From the NCBI RefSeq assembly GCF_003991155.1, contig NZ_CP031295.1: a stretch of DNA of 64,000 nt; one strand, written 5' to 3'. The stretch comes from Escherichia coli (GTDB taxonomy: Bacteria > Pseudomonadota > Gammaproteobacteria > Enterobacterales > Enterobacteriaceae). How positions within the stretch are numbered: the first letter of the stretch is position 1; the number at the start of each line of letters is the position of its first letter. Made by a program: the position numbers. Below, piece by piece: positions 1-1,107 of the stretch.

Positions 1-1107
1 TGCGCTGGTCTTCTTGTATCGCACTGTCTTGTTACGGCCTCTGCAGCTCGAGATGAAATTTACGCGCAGCCAGCGCCCTCCCAAACTGCCAACTGTTTTG
101 ACGCAAAGTGAAGTCCGAGCCTTGTTGCTGGCTATGCCAGTTCATCTTCGTCTCTTGGCGCAACTGATGTATGGCAGCGGACTCAGGCTGATGGAGGTGA
201 TGCGCCTGTGCGTGCAGGATATCGACTTCAACTACCTCTGCCTGATGGTCTGGAATGGCAAAGGGGGCAAGCACAGGCGTGTGACTCTGGCCTCGGAACT
301 CATTCCGGCCCTGCGGGAGCAAATTGCCTACGTCCAGCGCTTTTATATGACGGACTGCTTAAACGACGCGTATGCCGGGGTGGCCTTGCCGACGGCATTG
401 GCGCGCAAGTATCCGGCTGCCAGCAAAGAGCTGGGTTGGCACTACCTGTTTCCGGCATCCCATCTGAGTCGCGATCCTGTCGATGGGGCCTTGCGTCGAC
501 ATCATCTGGATCCAACTACCCTGCAAAAAGCGGTTCGAGCCACGGCGCGTCAGCTACAGCTGGGAAAACCGGTCACCTGTCATACCTTGCGCCATTCCTT
601 TGCCACCCATTTGCTGGCGCGGGGGGCGGATATTCGAACCGTGCAGGAGCAACTGGGCCATTCTGATGTTCGAACCACACAAATTTATACCCATGTGCTG
701 CAAAACGGCGCCAATGGGGTACGTAGCCCTTTGTCTGATCTGTAATGGTTGGGGGGCGGGACGCTCGGTTTTTCAGAACGAGTGGCCTGACGCAGGCACG
801 CTACCGCCCTTAGGTTACAGCTCCTAGAGGCTGACATCCGTTTCAGGTGGTGGCTTGTTACCCGGGCCATTTTCATCCTGATGGCCTGTTCTTTTCGTCA
901 AACTATGCTACGGATTTCAGTTTCATATGGAAATAAATAATCGACGGGATTTGCAAAAATGTGCGATAGACAGGGAAGGTGCGAACAAGTTCCTGATATG
1001 AGATCATCATGTTCATCCGGAGCGCATCCCAGAGGGACATCATGAGCCATCAACTCACCTTCGCCGATAGTGAATTCAGCACTAAGCGCCGTCAGACCCG
1101 AAAATAG

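What the first reader, a model, noticed from the sequence alone, without database searches (positions are those of the whole stretch)
1..745. Non-class-1 integron integrase (Vibrio IntI4-like) at the window edge
The first gene is an integron-type integrase, with the IntI-specific ALxRKYP insertion and catalytic motifs, but it is clearly diverged from the IntI1 copy at 20250-21263 and does not match my recollection of IntI2 or IntI3. It most resembles chromosomal-integron integrases of Vibrio/Shewanella type. Its 5' end, attI and any cassette array lie left of the window, and an IS5-like element sits 228 bp downstream. A second, unusual integron platform on a resistance plasmid would be noteworthy.
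Basis: partly seen in the sequence, partly recalled or inferred. Interest (0 to 1): 0.6.

Follow-up and report, generated by a model that had tools for sequence, protein, structure and literature searches.

The report
Untyped Aeromonas-type mobile integron integrase
The window starts inside a real, intact-looking integron integrase gene that belongs to none of the named resistance-integron classes. It is an Aeromonas-family type that has spread on many E. coli and Salmonella plasmids, and its cassette-docking site is fused to the same sul3/tet(M) module that ends 'sul3-type' class 1 integrons.

Summary
Window 2-745(+) encodes the last 247 residues of a 323-aa integron integrase ("IntIX"), and an IS5-like element starts 228 bp downstream.

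- **Family:** IntIX scores 446.7 bits against TIGR02249 (cut-off 265).
- **Identity to named classes:** 46% to the IntI1 in the same window, 45.9% to IntI2 and 58% to Vibrio IntI4.
- **Closest relatives:** the nearest named ones are Aeromonadaceae (78-79%). Unnamed metagenome relatives reach 87-92%.

The first 24 kb of the window are identical to NZ_CP068510.1. That record shows the gene is complete, with a LexA-box-like site and a conserved attI (CCGTACAATAAATTG|TT).

No cassette array follows attI. Instead, attI joins a ~182-bp unit followed by an IS440 remnant, tet(M) (sul3 in other plasmids) and IS26. The join lies exactly at the cassette crossover point. The same unit follows the qacL attC of the class 1 integron at window 26076.

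An IncC plasmid has two cassettes between an identical attI and this unit. An IncP-6 plasmid has a ~10-cassette array with Aeromonadaceae-type attC sites.

The platform is widespread: 107 PLSDB plasmids and 51 of 5426 complete E. coli genomes. One paper notes it only as an "untyped intI". I rate it a new, uncharacterised member of a known kind, of moderate interest.

The parts
2..745 (+). Codons 77-323 plus the stop codon of the integron integrase gene intIX (full gene 972 bp, WP_032482493.1).
   Evidence: Translation. TIGR02249 446.7 bits. 58% identity to VchIntIA across the full length. Catalytic residues invariant. 100% identical in more than 60 plasmids.
746..973 (+). Native 3' flank of intIX. 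It carries an 18-bp deletion at its right end next to the IS5-like element.
   Evidence: It aligns with the flank of the 92%-identical metagenome relative L004. The IncP-6 copy L006 keeps 18 more bases, which end in CTAA, before the IS.
974..2169 (+). IS5-family element whose transposase gene is broken by two in-frame stops (TAG 1105-1107 and TAA 1516-1518).
   Evidence: Inverted repeats located. The two ORF halves match NF033581 IS5 transposase at profile positions 5-135 and 142-285. The sequence was read directly.
2170..4070 (.). Continuation of the DNA segment that came in with intIX. It starts with the CTAA target duplication of the IS5-like element. It contains an Xre/ParS-type antitoxin fragment (3205-3402, - strand) and a 135-aa ORF (3464-3871). 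It is cut at 4071 by a Tn1721-type 38-bp inverted repeat.
   Evidence: The target duplication was reconstructed from the L006 left flank and the window right flank. The inverted repeat GGGGAGCCCGCAGAATTCGG... lies at 4071-4108. Antitoxin match. Other plasmids share the window only from 4070/4071 onward.
20250..21263 (-). Class 1 integrase gene intI1, the comparison copy on the same plasmid.
   Evidence: 46% identical to IntIX. Annotated IntI1 in matching records.
25679..26075 (+). The qacL gene (25679-26011) and its attC. This is the last true cassette of the class 1 array, which begins with dfrA12 at 21408. The crossover G is at 26075.
   Evidence: QacL 227 bits and DfrA12 385 bits. The attC sequence ends ...GGCTTAATTCAGGTG|TTAGTC. 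Its bottom strand folds as a hairpin, z = -4.7.
26076..26257 (+). The ~182-bp 'unit' (TTAGTCGGACGCCTACGG...). The same sequence, in inverted orientation, abuts attI of intIX just left of the window.
   Evidence: Junction catalogue. L009 1880-6827 matches window 31021-26074 at 99.98%.
26258..31021 (-). IS256-family (IS440) remnant (26258-26944), tet(M) (27437-29371) and IS26 (30202-31021). This is the module shared by the two integron platforms.
   Evidence: IS256 transposase 231.7 bits. Tet(M) 1495 bits. Match to L009.

Best explanation
Window 2-745 is the 3' three-quarters of an intact gene for an integron integrase of an unnamed class, here called IntIX. IntIX belongs to an Aeromonadaceae lineage of aquatic gammaproteobacterial integron integrases.

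IntIX is the recombinase of a mobile integron platform. The platform consists of a promoter region with a LexA-box-like site, intIX, and an attI whose crossover point is CAATAAATTG|TT.

Like other IntIs, IntIX should be a tyrosine recombinase that joins attI to the folded bottom strand of attC sites, cutting between the G and the TT. This would insert or excise gene cassettes, probably under SOS control.

In this plasmid lineage the platform carries no true cassettes. Its attI is joined, exactly at the crossover point, to a ~182-bp cassette-like unit followed by an IS440 remnant, tet(M) (sul3 in other plasmids) and IS26. The same module forms the unusual 3' end of sul3-type class 1 integrons, including the one at window 26076-31021.

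That junction was made by integrase-type site-specific recombination between the two kinds of integron, not by an insertion sequence.

**Shown:** the family assignment, the divergence from classes 1, 2 and 4, the intact gene, the conserved attI, the exact cassette-boundary junctions, the alternative cassette contents at identical attI sites, and the wide spread.

**Inferred:** that IntIX itself, and not IntI1, catalysed these events; that it is still active despite the R146C change; that it is regulated by LexA; and the direction of the module exchange.
For: **Family.** TIGR02249 scores 446.7 bits against a cut-off of 265, below the IntI1 equivalog cut-off. The alignment to VchIntIA is full-length and gap-free and includes the IntI-specific segment. 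The RKHRHY catalytic residues are invariant.

**Class.** Identity is 46% to IntI1, 45.9% to IntI2 and 58.4% to IntI4. No PLSDB plasmid encodes a protein in the 60-95% identity band.

**Lineage.** The best named hits are Aeromonas veronii 79%, an Aeromonadaceae MAG 78%, Plesiomonas 73% and Tolumonas 65%.

**attI.** The sequence CCG(T/G)A(C/T)AATAAATTG|TTA is conserved between the plasmid form, the 92% metagenome relative and A. veronii. Similarity ends right after it. A. veronii has a perfect CTGT-N8-ACAG at the position where the plasmid form has CTGTTTATATATACAT.

**Junctions.**
- An identical attIX is followed by the unit in L001, in L009 (the window's own record) and in metagenome contigs L020 and L023.
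- It is followed by a different first cassette in IncP-6 pRHBSTW-00464_5 (L006).
- It is followed by two cassettes and then the unit in K. pneumoniae KPA2 p2 (L010). That platform is 100% identical to L001 over 1780 bp.
- The unit is preceded by four different recombination sites: attIX, the qacL attC, a blaOXA attC (L022) and an Aeromonadaceae-type attC (L010).
- 94 PLSDB plasmids carry the attIX|unit junction.

**Cassette pool.** L006 has about 10 small ORFs with a 78-nt attC family. This family is shared with L004. Its conserved 23-mer also occurs on four contigs of an uncultured Aeromonadaceae MAG, in one case next to an IntI that is 67% identical.

**Spread.**
Against: - No recombination assay exists, so activity is inferred only from junction polymorphism. 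IntI1, present on the same plasmids, could have catalysed the attC x attC events.
- The disseminated allele has Cys at position 146. All eight aligned IntIs and the IncP-6 copy have Arg there, and the effect is unknown.
- About 40% of plasmid copies are truncated, and the IncP-6 copy is split by an IS21-family element. This suggests no strong selection for the integrase in Enterobacterales.
- The LexA-like site has one mismatch. By count alone it is no more frequent than chance.
- No promoter-like site facing the cassettes was found by the simple scan.
- IntI3 and IntI5 were not compared directly.
- The predicted folds of the new attC family have modest z-scores of -1.2 to -2.4.
Confidence: 0.8

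Rival explanations
1. The gene is an inert passenger. It is a fragment of an Aeromonadaceae integron dragged into Enterobacterales plasmids by IS26, IS5 and Tn3-family elements. All site-specific events either predate that transfer or were catalysed by IntI1. IntIX does nothing in its present hosts.
For: - There are no true cassettes at attIX in 94 plasmids.
- Many copies are truncated by other elements, and one is split by an IS21-family element.
- R146C lies at an otherwise invariant position.
- IntI1 is present on the same plasmids.
- The segment is bounded by an IS5-like element, a Tn1721-type inverted repeat and IS26.
Against: - The gene is intact and 100% identical in more than 60 plasmids.
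- Two platforms identical over 1780 bp differ by exactly two cassettes at attIX. This requires an attIX x attC reaction, which, from established knowledge of IntI1, heterologous integrases perform poorly.
- All catalytic residues are kept.
Confidence: 0.35
2. It is a member of an already catalogued mobile integron class (IntI3, IntI5 of pRSV1, IntI9 of SXT, or another numbered class) that I could not compare directly.
For: IntI3, IntI5 and the higher-numbered classes were not aligned here. RefSeq uses only the generic name 'integron integrase'.
Against: - No plasmid-encoded protein in PLSDB falls between 60% and 95% identity to it.
- The closest named proteins in a 5.8-billion-protein search are Aeromonadaceae at 79% or less.
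- The only paper found that mentions it calls it 'untyped' (PMC6834847).
Confidence: 0.05
3. The attIX|unit junction was produced by insertion-sequence activity (IS440 or IS26 rearrangement), as proposed for pGD31-F1928. Under this view the integrase is not involved.
For: PMC6834847 explains the separation of sul3 from the class 1 integron by IS440/IS26-promoted rearrangement. IS26 and an IS256-family remnant do flank the module.
Against: - The junction lies about 182 bp away from the IS remnant.
- It coincides to the base with the G|TT crossover of four different integron recombination sites.
- attIX is complete up to the crossover point in all forms.
Confidence: 0.05

Closest known systems
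VchIntIA (IntI4) and the Vibrio cholerae superintegron, PDB 2a3v
   Same: Same protein family and fold-level architecture, with a gap-free alignment over 317 residues at 58% identity. Same catalytic residues and the same IntI-specific segment. Both have a LexA-box-like site upstream. Relatives have arrays of non-resistance cassettes with a homogeneous attC family.
   Different: Identity is only 58%. IntIX is carried on plasmids of many Inc types in Enterobacterales rather than on a Vibrio chromosome. The attI and attC families are different. In this window there is no cassette array.
Class 1 integron, sul3-type (intI1 ... qacH/qacL-IS440-sul3-orf1-mef(B)-IS26; Antunes 2007, as cited in PMC6206278 and PMC6834847)
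   Same: Both end in the identical module of unit, IS440 remnant, sul3 or tet(M), and IS26, joined at the same G|TTAGTC crossover. Both are plasmid-borne in the same hosts and are often on the same plasmid.
   Different: The integrase is 46% identical and attI is unrelated. No resistance cassettes lie between attI and the module.
Chromosomal integron integrases of Aeromonadaceae (A. veronii GCA_029164125.1; uncultured Aeromonadaceae MAG CAMFKP01)
   Same: These are the closest named proteins, at 79% and 67% identity. The attI core is the same in A. veronii. The attC family is the same in the MAG.
   Different: Protein divergence is 21% or more, and DNA divergence is far greater (77% nucleotide identity even for the 92%-aa relative). 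The actual donor species was not found.
Class 2 integron (IntI2 of Tn7)
   Same: A mobile integron of the aquatic gammaproteobacterial integrase group in Enterobacterales.
   Different: 45.9% identity. IntIX has no internal stop codon. It has a different attI and a different context.

Membership tests
Integron integrase (IntI, TIGR02249) | Profile score above the curated family cut-off | tested here: met
   446.7 bits against a cut-off of 265, matching residues 8-323 to profile positions 1-315.
Integron integrase (IntI, TIGR02249) | Tyrosine-recombinase catalytic residues R-K-H-R-H-Y | tested here: met
   R138, K163, H270, R273, H296 and Y305 are invariant columns in a 9-sequence alignment that includes IntI1.
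Integron integrase (IntI, TIGR02249) | IntI-specific additional segment (ALxRKYP...) that XerC/D lack | tested here: met
   ALARKYPAASKELGWHYLFPA aligns without gaps to the same segment of VchIntIA. XerC/D models match only in two separate stretches and fall far below their cut-offs.
Integron integrase (IntI, TIGR02249) | Adjacent, divergently placed attI at which cassettes begin | tested here: met
   The conserved CAATAAATTG|TT lies 200-210 bp upstream. Three different inserts sit on identical platforms, and two more occur in orthologous loci.
Integron integrase (IntI, TIGR02249) | Catalyses attI x attC recombination | not testable with these tools
   Activity is inferred only from the exact cassette-boundary polymorphism.
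Class 1 integron (IntI1) | Near-identity to IntI1 and a score above the NF011946 equivalog cut-off | tested here: not met
   294.9 bits against a cut-off of 435. 46% identity to the IntI1 in the same window.
Class 2 integron (IntI2) | Near-identity to IntI2 of Tn7 | tested here: not met
   45.9% identity over 99% of the query to a locus annotated as class 2 integron integrase IntI2 (H180).
Class 4 / VchIntIA | Near-identity to V. cholerae IntIA | tested here: not met
   58.4% identity over 317 aligned residues.
Class 3 integron (IntI3) and other numbered classes | Near-identity to the reference integrase | tested here: inconclusive
   No direct alignment was made. Indirectly, no PLSDB plasmid encodes a protein 60-95% identical to IntIX. 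I did not verify that PLSDB contains intI3.
Mobile integron | Carried on transmissible elements across replicons and species | tested here: met
   107 plasmids in 7 genera, including IncF, IncHI, IncC, IncP-6 and ColE-type replicons. 52 are predicted to be conjugative.
Mobile integron | Short array of antibiotic-resistance cassettes | tested here: not met
   There are no cassettes in the common form. Cassettes in L006 and L010 encode hypothetical or HEPN proteins. Resistance genes (sul3, tet(M)) lie in the non-cassette module.
Sedentary chromosomal integron | Chromosomal location with a long array and a homogeneous attC family | tested here: not met
   The window copy is plasmid-borne and has no array. 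Only relatives (L006 on an IncP-6 plasmid, and the Aeromonadaceae MAG) show the homogeneous 78-nt attC family.

The most novel reading that the evidence does not exclude
IntIX defines a further class of mobile integron that is active in Enterobacterales and exchanges array segments with class 1 integrons by cross-class site-specific recombination.

On this reading, the hitherto unexplained 3' end of 'sul3-type' class 1 integrons (qacH-attC|unit-IS440-sul3) was created by such an exchange and may even have originated in the Aeromonadaceae-type array. Standard intI1/2/3 surveillance would then miss a platform able to bring Aeromonadaceae cassettes into clinical plasmids.
Probability: 0.3. Interest if true: 0.65.

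Novelty: new member of a known kind. Interest (0 to 1): 0.5.

Why it matters
Integron surveillance and typing rest on intI1, intI2 and intI3, and this integrase is invisible to those assays. Yet it sits on roughly 1% of complete E. coli genomes and on many Salmonella, Klebsiella and Shigella plasmids from pigs, food, wastewater and patients. On those plasmids it is physically linked to sul3 or tet(M).

The base-exact sharing of one module between two integron classes is natural evidence that arrays can be recombined across classes. It also offers a concrete, testable account of how the odd 3' end of sul3-type class 1 integrons is moved around.

The cassette-bearing IncP-6 and IncC relatives show a route from an Aeromonadaceae cassette pool into Enterobacterales. 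A cassette site of that attC family already sits inside a blaGES-1 class 1 integron.

If IntIX proves inactive, the finding reduces to a well-travelled relic.

Tried and rejected
- **Junction scan.** I scanned metagenome contigs for the junction 'Aeromonadaceae-type attC|unit' (AAAATGTTAGTCGGACGCCTACGG) and found 0 hits. The IncC form with cassettes before the unit is so far a single record.
- **Origin of the unit.** A metagenome scan with an internal 35-mer gave only 4 contigs. Two have the attIX form, one the qacL form and one a blaOXA form. None shows an uninterrupted native cassette. BLAST of the unit against all Aeromonadaceae-type loci gave nothing. The direction of the exchange stays open.
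- **Reciprocal product.** I searched PLSDB for the L006 cassette array next to a class 1 attC. Only attC-repeat matches came back.
- **Literature.**
  - The accession WP_032482493 gave nothing.
  - Searches on IS440/sul3/attI, on IncP-6 integrons and on new mobile integron classes gave nothing specific.
  - The pLNU-11 paper does not mention the remnant.
  - PMC6206278 does not mention it either.
  - Only PMC6834847 mentions 'an untyped ... intI gene'.
- **LexA box as a statistical signal.** One-mismatch matches are as frequent as chance in 25 kb. I keep it only because of its position and the perfect box in the A. veronii orthologue.
- **XerC/D or phage integrase.** Rejected, with scores far below the cut-offs.
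- **Assembly artefact.** Rejected, because the junction recurs in 94 independent plasmid records and in metagenome contigs.

Full report
**1. What is in the window**

Window 2-745 on the + strand is an open frame that runs off the left edge and stops at 743-745. Megablast of window 1-960 finds 107 plasmid records, 97 of them at 99% identity or more. The hosts are Escherichia, Salmonella, Enterobacter, Klebsiella, Shigella, Citrobacter and Hafnia.

In these records the gene is 972 bp long. It encodes a 323-aa protein annotated only as 'integron integrase', WP_032482493.1.

The first 24 kb of the window are 100% identical to NZ_CP068510.1 from position 7273 onward. That record is Salmonella Derby plasmid pIncH1, isolated from pork in Vietnam. 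It therefore shows what lies to the left of the window.

**2. Family and class**

The protein scores 446.7 bits against TIGR02249 'integron integrase' (cut-off 265). It stays below the IntI1 equivalog, at 294.9 against a cut-off of 435. XerC, XerD and XerA models fall far below their cut-offs.

It aligns without gaps over 317 residues to VchIntIA (IntI4, PDB 2a3v), including the IntI-specific segment ALARKYP...FPA. Identity is 58.4%.

In a nine-sequence alignment the catalytic residues R138, K163, H270, R273, H296 and Y305 are invariant.

| Comparison | Identity |
|---|---|
| IntI1 at window 20253-21263(-) | 46% |
| Annotated IntI2 | 45.9% |
| VchIntIA (IntI4) | 58.4% |

Among the 5000 best plasmid matches, none falls between 60% and 95% identity.

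In a search of 5.8 billion proteins, the closest named relatives are these:
- Aeromonas veronii, 79%
- an Aeromonadaceae MAG, 78%
- Plesiomonas, 73%
- Tolumonas, 65%
- then Rheinheimera, Colwellia and Psychromonas, at about 61-63%

Unnamed metagenome proteins reach 92% and 87%.

The lineage itself is Aeromonadaceae.

**3. What lies upstream**

The gene is complete. A site CTGTTTATATATACAT lies 14-29 bp before the ATG, one mismatch from the LexA consensus. At the same place the A. veronii orthologue has a perfect CTGTATTTGCATACAG. A promoter-like TTGGCA-16-TAGATT lies further upstream.

I aligned the upstream regions of three forms:
- the plasmid form
- the 92% metagenome relative (L004)
- A. 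veronii (L005)

All three share CCG(T/G)A(C/T)AATAAATTG|TTA, and similarity stops immediately after it. This is the expected signature of an attI with its crossover point.

In L004 and L005, small genes on the opposite strand follow, as in a cassette array.

**4. No array, but a shared module**

In p14EC033f (L001), the sequence after the crossover is about 182 bp (TTAGTCGGACGCCTACGG...). It is followed by an IS256-family (IS440) remnant, sul3, two ORFs, a mef(B) fragment and IS26.

This is the 3' end of sul3-type class 1 integrons. There, the same sequence begins exactly after the G of the GTTAGTC core that ends the qacL attC.

In the window's own record the module is the tet(M) variant: IS26, tet(M), IS440 remnant, then the unit abutting attI.

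The same 4.9-kb module is present inside the window at 31021-26074, in inverted orientation and at 99.98% identity. There it follows the qacL attC of the class 1 array, which runs from dfrA12 to qacL. The plasmid thus has two inverted copies of the module, one docked at each integron.

The junction catalogue shows that the unit is preceded by four different recombination sites:
- attIX
- the qacL attC
- a blaOXA attC, in metagenome contig L022
- an Aeromonadaceae-type attC, in L010

A 120-bp probe across attIX|unit is fully covered in 94 PLSDB plasmids.

**5. Evidence that the platform handles cassettes**

K. pneumoniae KPA2 plasmid p2 (IncC, from a dog in Thailand; L010) carries a platform 100% identical to L001 over 1780 bp. 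It has two cassettes between attIX and the unit. One is about 0.5 kb. The other encodes a HEPN-domain protein. Each ends in a 78-80-nt attC, and every boundary lies at G|TT.

IncP-6 plasmid pRHBSTW-00464_5 (Klebsiella sp., UK wastewater; L006) carries the same platform at 99.4-99.5% identity. It has an array of about 10 small ORFs of unknown function. At least four of its attC sites belong to one 78-nt family. Its intI is split by an IS21-family element with a 6-bp overlap.

The same attC family occurs in L004. Its conserved 23-mer is found on four contigs of an uncultured Aeromonadaceae MAG, in one case next to an IntI that is 67% identical. It also occurs singly in a few other genomes.

The bottom strands fold with the expected outer (R) and inner (L) pairings, but the z-scores are modest.

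**6. Downstream of intIX**

The IS5-family element at 974-2169 has two in-frame stop codons.

Comparing L006 with the window reconstructs a CTAA target duplication and shows an 18-bp deletion at the left flank in the window form. Window 2170-4070 is therefore the original continuation of the imported segment. It ends at a Tn1721-type inverted repeat at 4071-4108.

Fragments of the platform also occur in two other settings. One is the IncP-6 plasmid pLNU-11, which holds only the 3' part of intI. The other is the small mcr-4.3 ColE-type plasmids, where the fragment lies next to IS26.

**7. Mechanism and rival readings**

The simplest reading is that IntIX is a working, or recently working, integron integrase. 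The attIX|unit junction and the filled-versus-empty attIX polymorphism would then be products of attI x attC recombination.

The attC x attC steps could equally have been done by IntI1.

I cannot tell whether the unit moved from the class 1 array to the IntIX platform or the other way. No native, uninterrupted copy of the unit was found.

Several points count against current activity:
- The disseminated allele has Cys146 where every other aligned IntI, including the IncP-6 copy, has Arg.
- About 40% of plasmid copies are truncated, for example by a blaTEM-1 region in pHNEP28_cfr.
- No cassette-facing promoter was detected.

An IS-mediated origin of the junction, as suggested for pGD31-F1928 (PMC6834847), does not fit the base-exact coincidence with four integron core sites.

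**8. Novelty**

The sequence is abundant in public data:
- 107 PLSDB plasmids
- 51 of 5426 complete E. coli genomes, with 55 places on plasmids and 4 on chromosomes
- 2416 blocks of the assembly index

[quoted passage not shown] I found no description of its attI, its cassettes, its lineage, or the nature of the junction.

The library is limited to open-access papers and preprints, so an earlier description elsewhere cannot be excluded.

I rate it a new, uncharacterised member of a known kind, namely a further class of mobile integron. Interest is moderate. It would rise if activity and cross-class exchange were demonstrated.

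Noticed in passing
window 26076-31021, compared with NZ_CP068510.1 1880-6827 (L009): The plasmid carries two inverted, 99.98%-identical copies of a 4.9-kb module made of the unit, an IS440 remnant, tet(M) and IS26. [quoted passage not shown] Together they bracket about 26.5 kb whose two ends are integron recombination sites. How the duplication arose is not explained.
   Followed up: partly
window 974-2169: The IS5-family element is inactivated by two nonsense codons (TAG 1105-1107, TAA 1516-1518). 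It has an 18-bp deletion at its left flank relative to the IncP-6 copy. The CTAA target duplication is visible only when the two plasmids are combined.
   Followed up: yes
residue 146 of IntIX (window 209-211, codon TGC): The allele spread in Enterobacterales has Cys in the motif MRLCVQD. All eight other aligned IntIs and the IncP-6 copy have Arg there. The other differences from the IncP-6 copy are S99G, A129T and T268I. The effect on activity is unknown.
   Followed up: partly
L011 (NC_019286.1, K. oxytoca pINCan01) 2142-2216: An attC of the Aeromonadaceae-type 78-nt family, 96.8% identical, sits inside a class 1 integron between aac(6')-Ib4 and blaGES-1. A cassette site from this pool has therefore already been captured by a class 1 integron.
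   Followed up: no
L006 (NZ_CP056487.1) 5444-8000: An IS21-family element (istA 501 aa, istB 181 aa) is inserted at about codon 35 of intIX with a 6-bp overlap. As a result, the only plasmid with a long cassette array has a disrupted integrase.
   Followed up: yes
L008 (pMCR4-26153 and related 12.8-kb ColE-type plasmids) 6478-7878: The 3' end of intIX plus the IS5-like element (95.8-98.9% identity) lies next to IS26 on small mcr-4.3 plasmids from Enterobacter, Hafnia and E. coli.
   Followed up: no
L034 (OU015719.1) 8477-12807: In one 283-kb record the DNA to the right of the IS5-like element differs from the window. It encodes an HsdR N-terminal fragment, a Fic/Phd pair, and hsdM and hsdS-like genes. 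This may be a longer or alternative version of the imported segment.
   Followed up: no
window 4071-4108: A Tn1721-type 38-bp inverted repeat (GGGGAGCCCGCAGAATTCGGAAAAAATCGTACGCTAAG) marks where many other plasmids begin to share the window (from 4070/4071). It is followed by a truncated Tn3-family transposase gene (4104-5693, - strand).
   Followed up: partly
window 3205-3402 (-) and 3464-3871 (+): A 65-aa fragment matching only the C-terminal part of RES/Xre-type antitoxins lies next to a 135-aa ORF with no family match. Both travel with intIX in most records.
   Followed up: no
L004 compared with the window intIX gene: The metagenome relative is 92% identical in protein but only about 77% identical in DNA. 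This implies long divergence under strong purifying selection in the source lineage.
   Followed up: no
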